Source: Candidatus Cloacimonadales bacterium (GTDB lineage: Bacteria; Cloacimonadota; Cloacimonadia; Cloacimonadales; JAFGVF01). From it: DNA of 64,000 nucleotides. The notes under the pieces were generated by a model. It saw only the letters and a list, made by a program, of their open reading frames with translations, was not told where the DNA came from and made no database searches. The first letter of the stretch is position 1. Every line of letters begins with the position of its first letter. Position numbers and translations under genes: made by a program. The stretch is taken from contig CAXXJV010000002.1 in assembly GCA_963663475.2 (NCBI GenBank), forward strand, positions 192,001 to 256,000, written 5' to 3'. Below, one piece after another: positions 57,356-64,000 of this stretch.

Positions 57356-58123
57356 TTGAAACCTGAAAAAAGAAATCTAATCTTTATATTTGATTTGAAA
57401 AAATACATTCATCTATTAGAAAAAACTGATGAATTTTTAACAGCTTCGGAAAAAGAAAAGGCTAAAGAATTTATATCTCCCCTTAATGAGTATAAATTAT
57501 TATCTCAAATTATTAGGAGACTCATTCTCTCTTTCTTTTTAGATTGTCCTCCTCAAGAGATTACCTATAAATATCAAGAAAAAGGGAAACCAATACTTGA
57601 TAATGATAATTTATTCTTTAATATCTCTCATTCTAAAAACTATATGGCTATGGCACTTAGTATTAATAATGATATTGGTATTGATATTGAAGCTTTGGCT
57701 TATATTCCCAAGCTTAATTCATTCTTAAATACTTATCTAAACCCTGAAGAAAAAGCTAAATTTAAGAAAGAATTTAGCAATAATAAGGAATATTATGCCT
57801 ATACTTATTGGACAATGAAAGAAGCCTATCTTAAAGGAAGAGCTTTAGGCCTAGACTTTGATATGAAGAGAATTAGTCTAGTAAACGCCAGTAATCTTCA
57901 ACAAGATTCTTTAATGTTTGCTTGCAAAGTTGATGGAGTCTTAGATAAAAAATCATACACTACTATTTTAAAAATAAATGATGAAAAAGAACTTATGTGT
58001 GCAGTGAGCTTACGGAGTAATGAGGCTTTTAATATTGGTCAAAATCAGATAATCCAATTTCTAAATCCCCAACTATCAAAAGCATATATTTTTACTAAAC
58101 TTAACAAAAATGTAGAGGAATAA
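57356..58123 (+). CDS. 4'-phosphopantetheinyl transferase, Sfp type
   Basis: GKP, FNISHS, IGIDIE and WTMKEAYLKG motifs; TTG start. Confidence 0.92.
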   Translation: MKPEKRNLIFIFDLKKYIHLLEKTDEFLTASEKEKAKEFISPLNEYKLLSQIIRRLILSFFLDCPPQEITYKYQEKGKPILDNDNLFFNISHSKNYMAMALSINNDIGIDIEALAYIPKLNSFLNTYLNPEEKAKFKKEFSNNKEYYAYTYWTMKEAYLKGRALGLDFDMKRISLVNASNLQQDSLMFACKVDGVLDKKSYTTILKINDEKELMCAVSLRSNEAFNIGQNQIIQFLNPQLSKAYIFTKLNKNVEE

Positions 58124-59263
58124 ATGAAAGAATATAATTTCAGTGATAGAATTGAAGATACGGAAGTCAAGAGAGTTTATAAAGTTGTTAAAAATCATAA
58201 AGAACTAACAAAAGTAATTGATGAAATGCCAATTTGGATTTTAATTCTCAATAAAACTAGGCAAGCAGTATATTATAACAAAAAGTTATCAGATGATTTG
58301 CAAGTTAAAGATAAATGGGATGTTCTTGGTTTAAGACCTGGGGAGCTCTTCTCTTGTCAACATGCATGGGCTGATCAGGCTGGATGTGGTAATTCTGAAT
58401 TCTGTAAATATTGTGGAGCAGTAAAATCTATTCGTAATTCTCATTTTGGTAAAAAAGATGTTCAAGAATGTAGATTGTTAATAAATAATAATAAGCAAAT
58501 CAATGCAATGGATTTAGAAGTTTCTTCATCTCCCTTAGTCTTGGATTCTGAAGAACTCACCCTATTCTCAATCTTAGATATATCTGCTTTAAACAAGTCC
58601 CTATACATTGAAAAGACCTTCTTACACGATATTAGAAATACTGCTGCTGCTATAGTCTCCAATGCAGATTTAATAAGCCTTGAAGAAGATCCTGAAATTA
58701 AAGATGAACTGCTAAAATTATTAACTCCAACAGCTCATCAACTAATAGAAGAAATAGCAGCTCAACAGGAAATTAGAAGTGCTGATCTAGGTGAATGGAA
58801 ACCTGCTAATAAAACCGTTGAAAGTAGAGAGGTAGTTGATAAAGTAATTGATACATGTAAGCATTATATTATAGACTCTGATATTAAAATTGTTAAATCA
58901 ATCGAATCTTTTTCACTTAAAACTGAAGAAATATTACTGAAGAGAGTATTAATAAATATGCTCAAGAATGCTATAGAAGCATCAAAAGATGGGGATATTA
59001 TTACTATCCAAGGGAAGAATTTAAATGATGTCTCAGTAATTTTTTCTGTCCATAATCCTAAGTATATTCCTGATGATATAAGACTTCAACTCTTTCATCG
59101 CACCTTTTCCACCAAAGGAAATAATCGCGGTTTGGGAACATATAGCATAAAAATGATAACAGAAAACTATCTTAATGGAGAAGTTAGCATTCATTCAGAT
59201 AAGATACACGGAAGCGTATTTTCAATAACTATTCCCAAAGATAATCAATCTGAAAATGATTAG
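58124..59263 (+). CDS. Cytoplasmic histidine kinase with Cys-rich PAS-like sensor
   Basis: RPGELFSC...GCG...CKYC...ECR; H-box FLHDIRN; NMLKNA, FSTKG and GLGTY; no TM helix. Confidence 0.88.
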   Translation: MKEYNFSDRIEDTEVKRVYKVVKNHKELTKVIDEMPIWILILNKTRQAVYYNKKLSDDLQVKDKWDVLGLRPGELFSCQHAWADQAGCGNSEFCKYCGAVKSIRNSHFGKKDVQECRLLINNNKQINAMDLEVSSSPLVLDSEELTLFSILDISALNKSLYIEKTFLHDIRNTAAAIVSNADLISLEEDPEIKDELLKLLTPTAHQLIEEIAAQQEIRSADLGEWKPANKTVESREVVDKVIDTCKHYIIDSDIKIVKSIESFSLKTEEILLKRVLINMLKNAIEASKDGDIITIQGKNLNDVSVIFSVHNPKYIPDDIRLQLFHRTFSTKGNNRGLGTYSIKMITENYLNGEVSIHSDKIHGSVFSITIPKDNQSEND

Positions 59264-62200
59264 TTTTTCTGCTCAAGTAGCATCTTAGATATTACTTTTG
59301 AGATATCTTCGACATAAGGGTATTTCAATACAGTTGTATGGGAACCTTTCACTGAATAATAATTAATTTTATTTACCATCCCTGACCAACCATATTTAGG
59401 GTCAGGGATTAATCCTTCTAGAGCTTGTTCAGCTAAAAAGAGATTAATTTCACCTGCTAAATCAGACATTGTATGATTATTCAATGCATCAATATTATAG
59501 CGATATATTCTTTTAAGTTTATCTATTTCTTCTTGAGATTTCCCTCCTAAGCTTTCTGTTATATTCTCAATAAAATCTTCTTCTAAAACTTTATGAATAT
59601 TAGAGAAGTTACTCAGTTTAGTATGGAGATAAGACTTCCAGAATTCTGGTCCTAAAATCACAGCATTAAATAACCTTCTCAATTGGTAGGTAATCTTTCT
59701 AAGTTTAGTATTTGGTCTGCCCCAAGTCTCTATTAAATAAAGGTTAACTTGAGTCTTGCCTCTCTTCTTTAGTTCATTTCCGATTTCATAGGCTAGAATA
59801 CCACCATAACACCATCCTCCTATATAGTAGGGACCAGTTTTTTGGATTTTTAAAATCTCAGCAGTATATTTTTCTACCATATCTTTAAAACAAGTATGGC
59901 ATTCAGCAGAGCTTAAGCCTTGAGATTGGATTCCATAAACTGGTATCTTATTGTCTAAGGAGTGAATTAGGTTCACATAGCCAAGAACATCTCCAGGAGT
60001 AGTGTGGGTTAGGAAAAGAGGTTTGTAATTTTTATCTCCACTCTGCAGAGGTGTAATTATGGAAAAATCAGCTTGTTTTTCTTCTTGTAGATAGCGAGAT
60101 AAGTCTCTCACTGTAGAATGCTGATAGAGTGATGAAGAGTTTATCTTCATATTTAAAGCTTTTTCTAAAGATACAATGAGCTCGATAGCTTTAAGAGAAT
60201 CACCTCCTTCTTTAAAAAAGTTATCATCAGGTTTAATTTGTTTACCTAAAACTTGTCTAAAGAGGGGAAGTATTTTGAGTTCATATAAGTTATAAGCTTG
60301 GACATTTACTTGCTTTTCTTGGATTTTAGGTTCAGGAAGTAAGGACTTATTAATTTTTCCATTAGGGTTTAAAGGAAGTTTATCAATTCTAATAAACTCA
60401 CTTGGCAACATATATTCTGGAAGATATTCTTTGGCAATAGCTCTTAAATTATCCTTGTCCATATCACTATTACTTAGGTAATAGAGGTAGATTTGACGGT
60501 GGTTTTCTTGACCTCTAATGTCTGCAAAAACAGTTTTTAAGGAAGTTCTTTGCATAAAAGTATTTTCAATTTCTGATAATTCAATACGGTAGCCATTCAG
60601 CTTTATTTGATCATCATCTCTTCCTAAGAATTTTATTTTGCCTGATTTATAAAAGAGACCTAAATCACCAGTAGCATATATTCTACCATATTCAGAAGTC
60701 TCAATAAACTTCTCATTTGTAAGTTTAGGGTTAGCAAAATAGCCTGGAGTAAGGCCAAAACCTCCAATATAGATTGATCCACTAAGGCCTATTGGTCTAG
60801 GTTTAAGGAACTTATCTAAGATATGGATAGAAGTATTTGGCATAGGTTTTCCGATTGTATCATCAATTCCCTCATCAATAGTAGCAATGATAGTAGCTTC
60901 AGTTGGACCGTAAGTATTGAAGATTTTCGTATGTTTAGGTCCATGTTCTTGCCAGAAGGAATAGATATCTTGCGAGGCTTTTTCTCCACCAATGACAAGA
61001 GTTTTTACTTTATCTGAGAAAGTATTTTGAGTTAAGGATTTGGTGATTTGCTGCCAAAAAGCTGTAGGAAGATTCACTATAGTTATTTTTTTAGATGCGA
61101 TAAAATCTAAGAATTGAGAAGCAGATTTATTGATTTCTTCATCTCTAAGGACAAGGCTAGCTCCAGCCAAGAGAGTAGGGAAAATCTCTTCCACCGAGAT
61201 GTCAAAACTTATGGAAGCGAATTGCATAACCCTGTCAATGCTTGTGATATCATATCTATCTTTAACAATGAGATTATGGTTGATTAGGTTAAAATGACTT
61301 ACTGTAACGCCTTTAGGCTTGCCAGTAGTGCCAGAAGTGTAGATAATATAGGCTAAGTCTTGCGGATTTATTTTTATCTCATTTTTGTTATTTGACAGGT
61401 ATTTCTGGTAATTAGTCACTGATAAAAAGTCTAAATTTTCCAAGGAAGAATAAGATAAATCAGAGAAAATAGTTTTACATTTAGAATTTTCGATTATATG
61501 TTTAATTCTTTCATGGGGATAATCAGGGTCAATAGGCAGATAGGCATTTCCACTTTTGAGAATTGCTAAGATAATAATTATCATTTCTAGGCATCTATCA
61601 GTTGAAATAGCGATGAAATGTCCTTGTCCATATTCATTGAAGAGGTAGTTAGCTAAATCATCAGAAATTTCATCAAGATGCTTGTAAGTGATGTGTTTAT
61701 CAGCATGTTCTACTGCAATATTATCTGGGTATTTACTTACCGAATCTTTGAATAAATCAATATAAGAAACATTTTTTGGTAAAGGTAATTTTACAGAATT
61801 CCATTGCTTAATTAGGGATAAATCAGTCTCATTGATAAGTAATATATCCTTTAGAGGTAAATGATCTTGGAGATTAGATTTGAAGGTTGAATAAAGAAGA
61901 TTATCTTCAATAACTTCATAATTAGTAAGGATTTTAGCAAGATAAGCAAGGTCTGGGAATCGATAGAAAATACTTTTTAATAAGGATTTATGTTTTTTGA
62001 TTCTTGAAATACTTTTCTGAATATTTGTGATATTTTCTTGAAGAGATAACTTGAAATCTACTTTAATATTAAGCAGGAGTTTATTCATCAGAAGTGGATT
62101 ATTGTTTTTATAAGTAATTGCAAGAGAGAAATTAGATTGGGTATAAAGACGAGCAATAAAGCAAATGTAAGTTGCTAAGTCTGGATTATCAAAGTCCAAA

Positions 62201-64000
62201 TTATCAGAATTACTTACTTTATTATATTTGCCATTAAGGTCTTCTAAAGCTTGGTATTTAGCAAATTGTTTAAGCCAAAAGGCCTGATTTTTGATAGCAT
62301 CTTTATAAGATGCCAAATCTTCTAAAGTAGGTGGTTGCCAAGACTTCTCATCTCTTAGATCATGTAAGTTAATTTCTTGACCTGTAAGATTATAAAGTTT
62401 ATTAGCTATGATTAATCCATCTTTTAGATTTATCTCACAAGTTGATTGGCTAATGCTGAGATTTTTTGCATCACTAGTAGAGTTGCGCTTAAATTGAGCT
62501 TGTCCAATATGATAAAATTCATTAGCAATTTTGATTTTAAGACTTGCCACAGGGTTTTCAGTATCACCAAAAATACTAGCTCTGTATAAATTATCAGCTT
62601 GATCAATGCCTGTATCTGCTAGTAAAGAACAAGAATAATCAGGTCTATAGTCAGCGGGGAAATAAGTTCTTTTGCTTAAGTCTTGTGGATAAGTTTGCAA
62701 ATCATTATCATTAATAGAATCAAGTAAAGATGAAAAGGCATCTAGTGCTGCTTCATAGCATTTCATATTCAAAGAAAGAGAAGTATCTTCTTTGTTAACT
62801 TCTACTTGCTTTTGAATTAGTATCTGTCCAGTATCAATACCTTGGTCTACTTGATGCCAGGTAATACCGTGGTTTGTCTCATTATTTATAATAGCCCAAT
62901 AAGTAGCATAAAGTCCAGCATATTTAGGAAGTAAGGAATCATGATAATTAATAGCTTTCTTAATTGGACTAGCTAGAATCTCTTCATCTAAGACAATACT
63001 ATTGACAATACTAAAAAGGTAGTCATAAGGGTACTTCTTTAATATTTCTTTGATTTGATTCTTGGTTAAATCAAGAGAATAGATTCCTTGGCTTATAGCC
63101 CAGTCTCTAACTTGCTTATTTGGTGAAAATATTCCATAAATGTGAAAACCTTTGGCAATAAGTAATTGGGCAGATTTAATGCCCAGACTTGTCTCAGTTA
63201 AGATAAAGCAAGTATTTTTATTAGCTGTTACAGTAGGAGGATTCAAGTTATCAAGTAAATCTAAAAATCTCTCTTTTACTTCCTGGATTAGTGATTCTTG
63301 ATAGAAATCGGTATTATATTCTAACCAGAACTCCATTCCTGTTTGGATTTCTTCAGCATTTAAGATGATATCAGTTTTAGAAGTATTAGCCCCGATTTCT
63401 TTTTCTGATTTGATGATAGAATTTTCATCTGTTCCATGCCAATTTTGCATAACAAAAATAGCTTGATAGAGAGGAGTTTTAGATTTATCTATAGGTAGGT
63501 TAAAACTTTTAACTACATCTCCAAATGGTTGAGAACTATGGTCTAGGGCTGCCATAACTTGCTTGTGAATTTCAGTTATGATATCTTTAAAGGATTTATT
63601 AAAAAGCATAGCTCTTACAATAACCATGTTAGTATAATAACCTATTAATTGCTCTTCAATCTTACTTTTTCTTCCAGCAAATGGGAAGGCAACTGTGATA
63701 TCACTTCTTTGGGATTTTTCGGCAAGAACTATTTGATATATTGCTAGAAGAAGTGAGAAGAGAGAAACTGAGTTTGCTTGAGCAAACTTACTAATCTTTT
63801 CTAAGTGAATATTATCAATCTTAAACCAAATTCTCTTACCTTTAGGACTAAGATACTTATGCTTTATTCTATCTGGAATAAGGGCTAGGTCTGGAGAGAA
63901 GGGTTTAAGGACTTTATGCCAGTAGTCTTGATCTGTCTCATAGCTATTTGCCTTATCTTGTAGCCATTGGGCATAGTCTATATTCTCTACTTTTGCTTTT
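59260..64000 (-). CDS. Non-ribosomal peptide synthetase, 3' part: C - formyltransferase - A - PCP - TE (5' end outside window)
   Basis: The frame is open from the window edge (KAKVENIDYAQWL...YW...FAGR...IGYYTNMV, a C domain). It continues through F (NYHDSLLPKYAG, GIDTG), A (YTSGTTGKPKG, YGPTE, TGDL, NGK), PCP (FF..GGDSL) and TE (GWCYG, GSH). Confidence 0.95.
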   Translation of the reverse strand, partial: KAKVENIDYAQWLQDKANSYETDQDYWHKVLKPFSPDLALIPDRIKHKYLSPKGKRIWFKIDNIHLEKISKFAQANSVSLFSLLLAIYQIVLAEKSQRSDITVAFPFAGRKSKIEEQLIGYYTNMVIVRAMLFNKSFKDIITEIHKQVMAALDHSSQPFGDVVKSFNLPIDKSKTPLYQAIFVMQNWHGTDENSIIKSEKEIGANTSKTDIILNAEEIQTGMEFWLEYNTDFYQESLIQEVKERFLDLLDNLNPPTVTANKNTCFILTETSLGIKSAQLLIAKGFHIYGIFSPNKQVRDWAISQGIYSLDLTKNQIKEILKKYPYDYLFSIVNSIVLDEEILASPIKKAINYHDSLLPKYAGLYATYWAIINNETNHGITWHQVDQGIDTGQILIQKQVEVNKEDTSLSLNMKCYEAALDAFSSLLDSINDNDLQTYPQDLSKRTYFPADYRPDYSCSLLADTGIDQADNLYRASIFGDTENPVASLKIKIANEFYHIGQAQFKRNSTSDAKNLSISQSTCEINLKDGLIIANKLYNLTGQEINLHDLRDEKSWQPPTLEDLASYKDAIKNQAFWLKQFAKYQALEDLNGKYNKVSNSDNLDFDNPDLATYICFIARLYTQSNFSLAITYKNNNPLLMNKLLLNIKVDFKLSLQENITNIQKSISRIKKHKSLLKSIFYRFPDLAYLAKILTNYEVIEDNLLYSTFKSNLQDHLPLKDILLINETDLSLIKQWNSVKLPLPKNVSYIDLFKDSVSKYPDNIAVEHADKHITYKHLDEISDDLANYLFNEYGQGHFIAISTDRCLEMIIIILAILKSGNAYLPIDPDYPHERIKHIIENSKCKTIFSDLSYSSLENLDFLSVTNYQKYLSNNKNEIKINPQDLAYIIYTSGTTGKPKGVTVSHFNLINHNLIVKDRYDITSIDRVMQFASISFDISVEEIFPTLLAGASLVLRDEEINKSASQFLDFIASKKITIVNLPTAFWQQITKSLTQNTFSDKVKTLVIGGEKASQDIYSFWQEHGPKHTKIFNTYGPTEATIIATIDEGIDDTIGKPMPNTSIHILDKFLKPRPIGLSGSIYIGGFGLTPGYFANPKLTNEKFIETSEYGRIYATGDLGLFYKSGKIKFLGRDDDQIKLNGYRIELSEIENTFMQRTSLKTVFADIRGQENHRQIYLYYLSNSDMDKDNLRAIAKEYLPEYMLPSEFIRIDKLPLNPNGKINKSLLPEPKIQEKQVNVQAYNLYELKILPLFRQVLGKQIKPDDNFFKEGGDSLKAIELIVSLEKALNMKINSSSLYQHSTVRDLSRYLQEEKQADFSIITPLQSGDKNYKPLFLTHTTPGDVLGYVNLIHSLDNKIPVYGIQSQGLSSAECHTCFKDMVEKYTAEILKIQKTGPYYIGGWCYGGILAYEIGNELKKRGKTQVNLYLIETWGRPNTKLRKITYQLRRLFNAVILGPEFWKSYLHTKLSNFSNIHKVLEEDFIENITESLGGKSQEEIDKLKRIYRYNIDALNNHTMSDLAGEINLFLAEQALEGLIPDPKYGWSGMVNKINYYSVKGSHTTVLKYPYVEDISKVISKMLLEQKN

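What the first reader, a model, noticed from the sequence alone, without database searches (positions are those of the whole stretch)
62300..64000. NRPS with a formyltransferase domain embedded inside an elongation/termination module (C-F-A-PCP-TE)
Seen: the frame is open to the window edge and encodes the C-terminal part of a condensation domain (DYAQW, YW, FAGR, IGYYTN, QPF, KTDI). Directly after it comes a formyltransferase with intact Asn-x-His (NYHDSLLP, about 62914-62949) and Asp (GIDTG), then a diverged linker, then A-PCP-TE. Established: characterised NRPS F domains such as linear gramicidin LgrA sit at the N-terminus of the initiation module and formylate the alpha-amine. Inference: a formylated alpha-amine cannot act as a C-domain acceptor, so this F domain may formylate a side-chain amine, start a second branch, or be a former F-A-T starter fused behind another assembly line. 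Any of these implies non-canonical NRPS logic.
Basis: partly seen in the sequence, partly recalled or inferred. Interest (0 to 1): 0.85.

Follow-up and report, generated by a model that had tools for sequence, protein, structure and literature searches.

The report
Formyltransferase domain inside NRPS elongation module
A two-module peptide-making enzyme carries a formyl-adding domain in the middle of its second module instead of at the very start, a conserved but unstudied layout that probably makes a formylated dipeptide by non-textbook logic.

Summary
On the minus strand, window 59260 to beyond 64000 (true start at 66258) encodes one 2332-aa NRPS: A-T-C-F-X-A-T-TE. F is a complete two-subdomain formyltransferase of the ArnA/FMT fold with N-x-H, SLLP and Asp intact. 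The upstream C domain keeps HHLIFDG.

It is not a misassembly. Contigs from two other studies span the C-F junction without indels. Seven of 12 genomes of the family carry an open orthologue at 47-60% identity.

The layout recurs: 50 of 264 relatives have C directly before F. In 43 of 44 such modules the A-domain code is of one Glu239 type, as in Lys- and Arg/Tyr/Lys-activating domains. Only 11 of 144 N-terminal F modules have it. Most have a Cys thioesterase.

Best reading (about 0.5): a former F-A-T-TE starter fused behind A-T-C. F formylates one amine of a carrier-bound diamino acid, probably Lys, and C uses the other. No paper describing this was found. It is a new variant of a known kind, untested biochemically.

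The parts
59260..64000 (-). 3' 4741 bases of a single 6999-base NRPS gene (window-equivalent 59260..66258; 2332 aa from the likely ATG). Architecture A1-T1-C-F-X-A2-T2-TE. A1, T1 and the first half of C lie beyond the window end.
   Evidence: ORF list and translations; Pfam; start chosen by comparison with orthologue N-termini; motif coordinates.
63244..64000 (-). C-terminal part of the condensation domain (Pfam residues 605-1017 of P0002). Its HHLIFDG motif is at window-equivalent 64081-64101, outside the window.
   Evidence: Pfam Condensation 1.5e-76 on the full protein; HHLIFDG located; the motif is kept in the C domain before F in 47 of 50 relatives, 45 strictly as HHxxxDG.
62698..63213 (-). 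Formyltransferase domain, N-terminal (Rossmann-type, catalytic) subdomain; boundaries approximate. N-Y-H-D-S-L-L-P at 62926-62949; Asp of G-I-D-T-G at 62827-62841.
   Evidence: Pfam Formyl_trans_N 9.4e-21; PDB sequence hits ArnA 4.4e-16, sugar N-formyltransferases, LgrA F domain 2.9e-12; N107, H109, D110 invariant and D145 at least 90% conserved in 20 aligned relatives; AF2 model pLDDT 88.4 with Foldseek hits ArnA/FMT at E 1e-20 to 2e-21.
62368..62697 (-). Formyltransferase C-terminal subdomain, as in FMT and ArnA. It is absent from the LgrA F domain, which a review gives as 193 residues. Boundaries approximate.
   Evidence: Foldseek alignments cover about 300 columns of full two-subdomain FMT/ArnA formyltransferase chains, TM (target-normalised) 0.73-0.83; some relatives carry Pfam Formyl_trans_C PF02911; LgrA F length from passages of PMC10510592.
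61798..62355 (-). It has no HHxxxDG.
   Evidence: hhalign of an X alignment (220 rows) against the alignment of 43 upstream C domains: probability 90%, E 1.6e-6, X columns 29-100 on C columns 251-329 of 421. A separate AF2 model has pLDDT 90.6. Every row shown by Foldseek is an NRPS condensation-type domain, alone or within a larger NRPS chain, but matches are weak: EntF 2.3e-4, RzmA starter C 1.3e-3, TMq 0.37-0.54.
60325..61752 (-). Adenylation domain A2. Specificity-code positions 235, 236, 239, 278, 299, 301, 322, 330, 331 read D-I-E-N-V-G-T-I-I.
   Evidence: Pfam AMP-binding. Code extracted. Column choice checked against ApnA-A1 (alignment) and the Stachelhaus numbering quoted in PMC5311044 (W277, S278, 322, 331). 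The same columns recover DFWNIGMV, listed as PvdD-M2-Thr in Table 2 of PMC3207962, from other rows.
60088..60273 (-). Carrier domain T2, with the phosphopantetheine serine in GGDSL at 60193-60207.
   Evidence: Pfam PP-binding; motif coordinates.
59263..60021 (-). Thioesterase domain with Cys, not Ser, at the nucleophile position (G-W-C-Y-G, 59803-59817). G-S-H at 59332-59349.
   Evidence: Pfam Thioesterase 5e-16; motif coordinates. Cys at the aligned position in 35 of 41 internal-F relatives that have a TE, against 10 of 56 N-terminal-F relatives with other A codes.
57356..58123 (+). 4'-phosphopantetheinyl transferase gene, two genes from the NRPS. It is the likely activator of T1 and T2.
   Evidence: Pfam ACPS 2e-12 and AASDHPPT_N 1.1e-6. 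An ORF of the same size sits in the same position in four same-genus genomes; this was compared by ORF size and order only, not by Pfam in those genomes.

Best explanation
The gene encodes a self-contained two-module NRPS, A1-T1-C-F-X-A2-T2-TE. The second half (F, half-C remnant X, A2, T2, Cys-TE) is the same unit that in most relatives stands alone at the N-terminus as a formylating starter. Here it has been fused behind a complete A1-T1-C. Shown: all domains are present with their catalytic motifs, and the layout is conserved. Inferred: A2 loads a long basic amino acid with two amines, most likely lysine, on T2. F transfers a formyl group from N10-formyl-tetrahydrofolate to one of the two amines. 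The intact C domain joins the T1-bound first residue (a hydrophobic-type pocket) to the other amine. That would remove the paradox that a formylated amine cannot be a C-domain acceptor. I slightly favour N-alpha formylation with an N-epsilon isopeptide, because it needs no change in F-domain regiochemistry. N-epsilon formylation with a normal peptide bond is nearly as likely. The Cys thioesterase then releases the formylated dipeptide, possibly by cyclisation. The neighbouring PPTase primes the carriers.
For: Architecture and motifs. F is a complete formyltransferase with an invariant N-x-H-D, SLLP and conserved Asp. Both C and F look competent wherever they are adjacent: of 50 relatives with C directly before F, 47 keep an HHxxxD[GA] motif (45 strictly HHxxxDG) and 50 keep N-x-H-x-x-x-L-P plus D-x-G. 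Purifying selection: 7 of 12 genomes of the family, G000 included, have a 2117-2352-codon open frame around the match without stops, at 47-60% identity in F-X for the six relatives. Same unit as a starter: 209 of 264 relatives begin with F; P0134 begins M-A-N-N-K-K then F, has the same code type and G-W-C-Y-G, and sits next to the window's clade on the tree. Code association: 43 of 44 internal-F modules have D-x-E-[DN]-[IVA]-G-[TS]-[IV]-[IV], against 11 of 144 N-terminal F modules, whose codes are otherwise varied. Glu239-type codes belong to Lys modules (DAESIGSV is BacB-M1-Lys, and DGEDHGTV is matched to it, in Table 2 of PMC3207962). The closest solved A domain in the pocket region is ApnA-A1 (84.8 bits against 57 for the next), whose genotypes give Arg/Tyr, Arg/Lys and Arg/Tyr/Lys peptides (passages of PMC5311044). 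Self-contained pathway: in the second genus the neighbours are restriction-modification and unrelated genes.
Against: No biochemistry exists; substrate, formyl acceptor and product are all inferred. The nearest solved A domain activates Arg and Tyr. The solved Lys-activating epsilon-poly-L-lysine synthetase A domain scores only 30.8 bits. If A2 loads Arg or Tyr there is no obvious second amine. The code association is not phylogenetically robust: only 6 independent pairs, in which the code changed the same way in about 3.7, the other way in 0 and did not differ in 2.3 (median p 0.125). The 264 proteins include close relatives and fragments from two differently filtered searches. Exceptions: 1 of 44 internal modules has a different code (DILDFGATS). 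Six of 50 gave no code, three of them of the same monooxygenase-interrupted type as that exception. Eleven N-terminal F modules share the Glu239 code, so it is not exclusive. No tool result separates alpha from epsilon formylation. C and A2 are separated by about 500 residues, so it is not shown that T2 can reach the C acceptor site.
Confidence: 0.5

Rival explanations
1. F formylates the alpha-amine of the first residue. This could happen on T1 before condensation (a starter-type F domain merely placed after C in the polypeptide) or on the dipeptidyl-S-T2 after condensation. The product would be an ordinary N-terminally formylated dipeptide.
For: This keeps the known chemistry of F domains, which formylate the amine of a carrier-bound aminoacyl thioester at the chain start (passages of PMC10510592). 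C and F are both intact. T2 lies just after A2, which follows F-X, as T1 follows F-A in LgrA. The LgrA structures described in that review show a carrier domain travelling to an upstream F domain.
Against: It does not explain why 43 of 44 internal-F modules share one Glu239-type A code while first-module codes vary (DALLYGVCI, DVYILGGVY, DSCLQGLVD, DVWFISLVD, DAWLHGLVI). F would also have to ignore the free alpha-amine of the aminoacyl-S-T2 that it meets first. In relatives with further modules after the F module (A-T-C-F-X-A-T-C-A-T-TE) the F domain would be even further from the chain start.
Confidence: 0.22
2. The F domain is a catalytically silent or purely structural relic of the fusion, and the enzyme makes a plain dipeptide.
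For: Fused domains can decay. X itself is a decayed half condensation domain that has been kept. No formylated product is known for this family.
Against: The catalytic N-x-H-D, the SLLP motif and the Asp are kept in 50 of 50 relatives with C before F. N, H and the following D are invariant in the 20-sequence alignment, across identities down to 25-30%. Orthologues at 47-60% identity keep the whole domain open. The model is confident (pLDDT 88.4).
Confidence: 0.08
3. Two uncoupled lines sit in one protein. F-X-A2-T2-TE still acts as its own starter and releases a formylated single amino acid. A1-T1-C does something else, for example acylating a soluble amine or stalling.
For: Stand-alone F-A-T-TE proteins of the same type exist (P0134, P0096). 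Alpha-formylation of residue 2 would block normal condensation.
Against: The A-T-C-F-...-A-T-TE arrangement is conserved in several clades with C motifs intact (36 proteins listed; 47 of 50 motifs). The C-F linker is short and constant: a gap of 5-26 residues between the mapped C and F segments in 44 of 50. A useless or uncoupled first module would not be expected to persist at 47-60% identity.
Confidence: 0.12
4. Assembly artefact: the C and F parts were joined by misassembly, or a stop or frameshift was overlooked.
For: None found. The source genome has two contigs and relatives are metagenome-assembled.
Against: Contigs from two other studies (22,290 and 5,172 bases) cover 62000-64000 in one piece with no insertions or deletions and 34 and 53 substitutions. 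A 5,078-base contig from another sample covers 62413-64000 with no difference. Six other genomes have the same junction in an open frame.
Confidence: 0.01

Closest known systems
LgrA initiation module of linear gramicidin synthetase (F-A-T-C-A-T-E)
   Same: A formyltransferase domain is fused upstream of an A domain in an NRPS. The Formyl_trans_N catalytic core aligns (LgrA chains 2.9e-12 to 1.3e-11, query 81-206 on LgrA 45-171). According to the review, F takes the place that a C domain has next to A (passages of PMC10510592).
   Different: LgrA F is at the N-terminus, is 193 residues long and abuts A directly. Here F follows A-T-C, has the extra FMT/ArnA-type C-terminal subdomain and is separated from A by a half condensation domain. 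By sequence it is closer to ArnA and sugar N-formyltransferases than to LgrA.
N-terminal F-X-A-T-(TE/R) starters of the same sequence family, such as a Legionella sp. MAG protein (P0096), F-A-T-R proteins (P0036) and cyanobacterial F-A(monooxygenase-interrupted)-T proteins named MupA/Atu3671 family (P0049). The mollusc FmtATR of the bursatellin pathway has the same domain order.
   Same: Same F (N and C subdomains), X and A unit at 25-45% identity over the region. FmtATR is described as Fmt-A-T-R predicted to make N-formyl-tyrosinol (passages of PMC11869996).
   Different: In those proteins F is the first domain and A codes are varied. In the window's protein the unit is preceded by A-T-C and the code is of the Glu239 type. 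I did not compare the FmtATR sequence itself. Its formylation step was not reconstituted in that paper.
ArnA N-terminal formyltransferase domain and methionyl-tRNA formyltransferase
   Same: Best sequence and fold matches for residues about 19-300 of the F region (ArnA 4.4e-16; Foldseek E 1e-20 to 2e-21, TM 0.76-0.83 on the target). Same N-x-H and Asp catalytic residues and SLLP motif.
   Different: Those are free-standing or differently fused enzymes acting on UDP-Ara4N or Met-tRNA, not on carrier-bound amino acids.
ApnA-A1 adenylation domain of anabaenopeptin synthetase (PDB 4D4G)
   Same: Closest solved A domain across the specificity pocket (84.8 bits). It shares Asp235, Glu239, Gly301 and Ile330, with conservative changes at 236 and 299 (read from the alignment).
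   Different: ApnA-A1 has Ser278, Val322 and Ala331, and activates Arg and Tyr, with some genotypes giving Lys peptides. The window's A2 has Asn278, Thr322 and Ile331, and its substrate is untested.
Stand-alone side-chain formyltransferases of hydroxamate siderophore pathways (PvdF/CchA type; named from my own knowledge, not from a call)
   Same: They would be the precedent for formylating a side-chain nitrogen of a diamino acid destined for an NRPS.
   Different: They are separate enzymes that act on N-hydroxy-ornithine and work with a Lys/Orn N-hydroxylase. Here the formyltransferase is embedded. The genome shows only weak partial PF13434 matches (21 bits) of the kind that also occur in 12 of 14 control genomes.

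Membership tests
NRPS formylation (F) domain, LgrA type | Formyl_trans_N fold with catalytic Asn-x-His and Asp and the SLLP folate-site motif | tested here: met
   Pfam 9.4e-21; N107, H109 and D110 invariant and D145 at least 90% conserved; ArnA/FMT fold; LgrA F aligned at 2.9e-12.
NRPS formylation (F) domain, LgrA type | Located at the N-terminus of the initiation module | tested here: not met
   F starts at about residue 1028 of 2344, after A1-T1-C. The review gives the N-terminal position as the rule.
NRPS formylation (F) domain, LgrA type | F directly abuts the A domain (about 190-residue F, no C-terminal subdomain) | tested here: not met
   F has a C-terminal subdomain, and about 190 residues of C-lobe remnant lie between F and A.
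NRPS formylation (F) domain, LgrA type | Transfers formyl from N10-formyl-THF to the alpha-amine of a carrier-bound aminoacyl thioester | not testable with these tools
   Needs enzyme assays.
Canonical NRPS elongation module (C-A-T) | C domain with HHxxxDG | tested here: met
   HHLIFDG at residues 732-738; Pfam Condensation 1.5e-76, profile 3-433 of 456.
Canonical NRPS elongation module (C-A-T) | C joined to A by a short linker, forming the C-A platform | tested here: not met
   About 500 residues (F and X) lie between the end of C (1017) and the start of A2 (1515).
Lysine-activating A domains | Specificity code matching a biochemically assigned Lys code | tested here: inconclusive
   D-I-E-N-V-G-T-I shares D235, E239 and G301 with DAESIGSV (BacB-M1-Lys), with conservative changes elsewhere. 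Relatives' DGEDIGTV is 7 of 8 identical to DGEDHGTV, which Table 2 of PMC3207962 matches to that Lys code. But the nearest solved A domain is the Arg/Tyr-type ApnA-A1, and the solved Lys A domain 7wew scores low.
Hydroxamate-type side-chain formylation (PvdF/CchA-like system) | Partner Lys/Orn N-hydroxylase (PF13434) in the genome or cluster | tested here: not met
   Only two weak partial matches on the other contig (E 1.5e-4 and 2.5e-4). The same search rings in 12 of 14 control genomes.
Type I NRPS thioesterase (Ser-His-Asp) | Serine nucleophile in GxSxG | tested here: not met
   G-W-C-Y-G; Cys at the aligned position in 35 of 41 internal-F relatives with a TE. Pfam Thioesterase fold met.

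The most novel reading that the evidence does not exclude
This is the type example of an undescribed class of NRPS branch-point modules. A starter-type formyltransferase plus half condensation domain is inserted between C and A of a lysine module. F caps N-alpha with formyl, so the upstream C domain must build an isopeptide on N-epsilon. A cysteine thioesterase then closes the free N-terminal amine onto the lysine carboxyl, giving a small, strained, formamide-bearing macrolactam. The class has a variable first residue and a constant formyl-lysine core. It is spread by gene transfer among uncultured bacteria of wastewater and microbial mats.
Probability: 0.2. Interest if true: 0.8.

Novelty: new variant of a known kind. 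Interest (0 to 1): 0.62.

Why it matters
Textbook NRPS logic places formylation domains only at the chain start, because a formylated amine cannot be extended (review passages). This gene and at least 49 relatives show a conserved, apparently functional layout that breaks the rule. It is tied to one A-domain code type and usually to a cysteine thioesterase. That gives a concrete single-gene system for asking three questions: how a tailoring domain picks between two amines on a carrier-bound residue, how a C domain works when separated from its A domain by 500 residues, and what the product family is. The gene needs only a PPTase, which sits next door. It would also improve automated structure prediction for such clusters, which on the N-terminal-only rule has no logic for an F domain that follows a C domain.

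Tried and rejected
- Rfam scan of the gene, its upstream region and the divergent gcvP genes found no family at gathering score.
- The promoter and terminator scan gave counts equal to shuffles (35 against 33.4; 6 against 4.2), so no start or stop signals are claimed.
- No RNA holder is listed among the sequencing runs, so nothing can be said on expression.
- A hydroxamate (N-hydroxy, N-formyl) route was considered and set aside. There is no convincing Lys/Orn N-hydroxylase and none among the neighbours.
- The genome-contig scan with one protein gave only 2 loci, one of them a relevant same-genus record. The genome search was more useful.
- Literature searches for 7-10-residue specificity codes found nothing and one paper.
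- Searches for an internal or embedded F domain found no paper describing one.
- A search for formyl-lysine in NRPs led only to the ureido 'CO' monomer issue in Norine, which is not relevant.
- The phylogenetically independent test of 'internal position goes with Glu239 code' has too few pairs (6) to reach significance.
- The F-domain tree is FastTree only and midpoint-rooted. I draw no conclusion on how many times the fusion arose (14 state changes).
- Complex prediction was not used. A carrier-enzyme docking question is a poor fit for it.
- A Foldseek search of the whole F-X model returned only formyltransferases, so X was folded and searched separately.
- Supplementary files of papers were not available. 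Supplementary tables of A-domain codes could bear on the Lys assignment.
Full report
**What is there**

The finding lies on the minus strand. The frame 59260..63999 is open to the window edge. Pfam finds, in order along the protein: the C-terminal part of a Condensation domain (3.5e-43), Formyl_trans_N (9.4e-21), AMP-binding (7.4e-77), PP-binding (1e-15) and Thioesterase (5e-16).

The window is G000:C2:192001-256000. Fetching the next 20 kb shows that the gene continues to window-equivalent 66294 as listed by the ORF tool, from a TTG. Orthologues begin at the position of the ATG 12 codons further in. I therefore take 66258 as the start, giving 2332 aa.

The full order is A1-T1-C-F-X-A2-T2-TE. 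The C domain has HHLIFDG at 64081-64101, just outside the window. NYHDSLLP is at 62926-62949, GIDTG at 62827-62841, the T2 serine motif at 60193-60207, and the thioesterase nucleophile motif G-W-C-Y-G at 59803-59817.

**The F domain is a real, complete formyltransferase**

- Against solved structures by sequence, the best hits are ArnA (4.4e-16), several sugar N-formyltransferases (about 1e-13) and the LgrA F domain (2.9e-12).
- In an alignment of 20 relatives at 25-60% identity, N107, H109 and D110 of I-N-Y-H-D-S-L-L-P are invariant. The Asp of G-I-D-T-G is at least 90% conserved.
- An AlphaFold2 model of residues 1010-1520 has mean pLDDT 88.4.
- Its first 300 residues or so superpose on full two-subdomain formyltransferases. 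ArnA and Met-tRNA formyltransferases score Foldseek E 1e-20 to 2e-21 with target-normalised TM 0.76-0.83.
- It therefore has the C-terminal subdomain, which the 193-residue LgrA F domain described in a review does not have room for (passages of PMC10510592).

**The "diverged linker" is half a condensation domain**

- I aligned the stretch between F and A2 from 220 relatives and compared it by hhalign with an alignment of the 43 full-length upstream C domains. It matches C-domain columns 251-329 of 421 with probability 90% and E 1.6e-6.
- Folded alone it is confident (pLDDT 90.6).
- All Foldseek rows shown are NRPS condensation-type domains, alone or within larger NRPS chains (EntF, RzmA starter C, Cy domains, Txo1, CDA-C1). 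The matches are weak: best E 2.3e-4, query-normalised TM 0.37-0.54.
- It has no HHxxxDG.
- I read it as a C-lobe remnant that probably keeps the contact with the A domain. That role is inference.

**It is not an artefact**

- Logan contigs from two other studies (22,290 and 5,172 bases) cover 62000-64000 in one piece. They have no insertions or deletions and 34 and 53 substitutions.
- A 5,078-base contig from another sample of the first study covers 62413-64000 without a difference. The C-F junction is at about 63240.
- Seven of 12 genomes in the GTDB family (G000 included) carry an F-X match. This is five of six other genomes of the genus and one of one in a second genus.
- The open frames around the match are 2117-2352 codons long with no stops, and the six relatives are 47-60% identical in F-X.
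- In the whole phylum the count is 7 of 232 genomes and 2 of 66 genera, G000 included.
- One same-genus record is titled a MAG of Candidatus Cloacimonadales.

**Neighbours**

Within the genus, the order of ORFs by size and position is kept: split gcvP, the NRPS, a histidine kinase, a PPTase, two TPM-domain proteins and LemA. In the other genus the neighbours are restriction-modification genes and other unrelated genes. The NRPS therefore seems to need nothing beyond a PPTase.

**The layout recurs widely**

- A full HMMER search of 1.84 billion representatives with F-X gave 1060 proteins at E up to 1e-30. In 24 of the best 150, the match starts beyond residue 200.
- I mapped domains on all 264 proteins returned, plus the query itself, by phmmer with pieces of the window's protein.
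- The result was 209 proteins beginning with F, 50 with a C domain directly before F, and 5 of other kinds.
- Among the 50, 47 keep an HHxxxD[GA] motif (45 strictly HHxxxDG, 3 with none found). All 50 keep N-x-H-x-x-x-L-P and D-x-G.
- A few continue with further modules after the F module (A-T-C-F-X-A-T-C-A-T-TE).
- Caveats: the two searches had different length filters, the set contains close relatives and fragments, and domain calls rest on one query protein.

**A clue to the logic**

I read the A-domain specificity positions from a MAFFT alignment of the 188 A domains that follow F. The columns were checked in three ways:
- In the HMMER alignment to ApnA-A1, the window's N, T and I-I align with that protein's S, V and I-A.
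- PMC5311044 numbers those ApnA-A1 positions as 278, 322 and 330-331 after Stachelhaus (passages).
- The same columns give DFWNIGMV in other rows, which Table 2 of PMC3207962 lists as PvdD-M2-Thr.

The window's A2 reads D-I-E-N-V-G-T-I-I. Of 44 modules with C before F, 43 read D-x-E-[DN]-[IVA]-G-[TS]-[IV]-[IV]. Of 144 N-terminal F modules only 11 do, and the rest are highly varied.

Glu239 codes belong to modules for long basic or polar residues:
- DAESIGSV is BacB-M1-Lys, and DGEDHGTV is matched to it in that table.
- ApnA-A1 is by far the closest solved A domain in the pocket region (84.8 against 57 bits). It is the Arg/Tyr bispecific domain whose genotypes also give Arg/Lys peptides.

The first-module codes vary between clades. 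Most internal-F proteins with a thioesterase have Cys at the nucleophile position (35 of 41). N-terminal-F proteins with other codes mostly do not (10 of 56).

**How it most likely works**

Shown: the domains, their motifs and their conservation.

Inferred: the unit F-X-A2-T2-TE is a former formylating starter. Stand-alone versions exist, including P0134, which starts with Met and a nine-residue leader. It has the same code type and G-W-C-Y-G, and it sits beside the window's clade on a FastTree of F domains. This unit became fused behind A1-T1-C.

F formylates one amine and C acylates the other. I slightly prefer N-alpha formylation with an N-epsilon isopeptide, because it keeps the usual F-domain chemistry. 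N-epsilon formylation with a normal peptide bond is nearly as likely. The Cys thioesterase may favour a difficult cyclisation; that is speculation. I give the two-amine reading about 0.5.

**Evidence against, and rivals**

- The closest solved A domain activates Arg and Tyr, while the solved Lys A domain 7wew scores only 30.8 bits.
- The association of code with position rests on few independent events. There are six independent pairs; the code changed the same way in about 3.7, never the other way, and did not differ in 2.3 (median p 0.125).
- One of 44 internal modules has another code. Three of the six without a recovered code are of the same monooxygenase-interrupted type as that one.
- Rival 1 (0.22): F formylates the N-terminal amine of residue 1, on T1 or after condensation. 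This does not explain the constant A2 code.
- Rival 2 (0.08): F is silent. This is contradicted by conservation of the catalytic residues.
- Rival 3 (0.12): the two halves are uncoupled. This is contradicted by conservation of the C motifs and of the whole arrangement.
- Rival 4 (0.01): misassembly. This is excluded.

**Comparison with what is known**

The domain works like, and is homologous to, NRPS F domains. It fails two defining features of the LgrA type: N-terminal position and direct abutment on A. The module fails the canonical C-A platform.

A review covering work up to 2022 states that F domains exist at the N-terminus because formylation blocks the amine. A 2025 paper calls F domains rare in bacterial NRPSs and describes an N-terminal Fmt-A-T-R enzyme (passages of PMC11869996). 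Entotheonella clusters with formyl starters also place Fmt in the loading module (passages of PMC12858407).

Four full-text searches for an internal or embedded F domain found no description. Subscription journals and supplements were not searchable. I therefore call this a new variant of a known kind. It is present in public databases under generic names but apparently uncharacterised.

**Verdict**

Interest is 0.62: a conserved exception to a stated NRPS rule, with a testable single-gene system, but with all chemistry still inferred.

Noticed in passing
window 59803-59817 (minus strand): The thioesterase has Cys instead of Ser at the nucleophile position (G-W-C-Y-G). The same holds in 35 of 41 internal-F relatives with a TE, against 10 of 56 N-terminal-F relatives with other A codes. 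From my own knowledge, Cys thioesterases are linked to strained-ring formation in a few NRPSs; this was not checked here.
   Followed up: partly
window 57356-59263 (plus strand): A PPTase gene (57356-58123) is immediately followed by a GHKL histidine-kinase-like gene (58124-59263) that converges on the NRPS. ORFs of matching size keep this order in four same-genus genomes. No response regulator was looked for.
   Followed up: partly
L002 7619-10416 (window-equivalent 66619-69416, plus strand): Split glycine-cleavage P protein genes (gcvPA/gcvPB type) lie divergent from the NRPS start and are syntenic in the genus. Glycine cleavage feeds the one-carbon folate pool that an F domain draws on; whether this adjacency means anything is unknown. 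No glycine riboswitch was found at gathering score.
   Followed up: partly
relatives P0049, P0060, P0087, P0100 and others: Many cyanobacterial relatives are about 1550-aa proteins named 'MupA/Atu3671 family FMN-dependent luciferase-like monooxygenase'. In the one sequence I read (P0049), the order is F, X, then an A domain interrupted by the monooxygenase, then T. Their A code is mostly D-I-L-D-F-G-A-T-S. This is another uncharacterised F-starter family.
   Followed up: no
L002 11690-13357 and 14179-16281 (minus strand): Two proteins carry Por_Secre_tail (T9SS-type C-terminal sorting domain), which is informative for the lineage. A same-genus record is titled Candidatus Cloacimonadales.
   Followed up: no
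whole phylum: The gene is confined to one family (7 of 232 genomes, 2 of 66 genera, G000 included), while relatives at 30-37% identity carry labels from other phyla (Kiritimatiellales, Gammaproteobacteria, Larkinella). This patchiness suggests horizontal transfer, which was not tested.
   Followed up: no
window 62000-64000 in runs X5-X15: Near-identical copies (97-98% over 2 kb in the two laid in one piece) occur in wastewater and microbial-mat metagenomes from several studies.
   Followed up: partly
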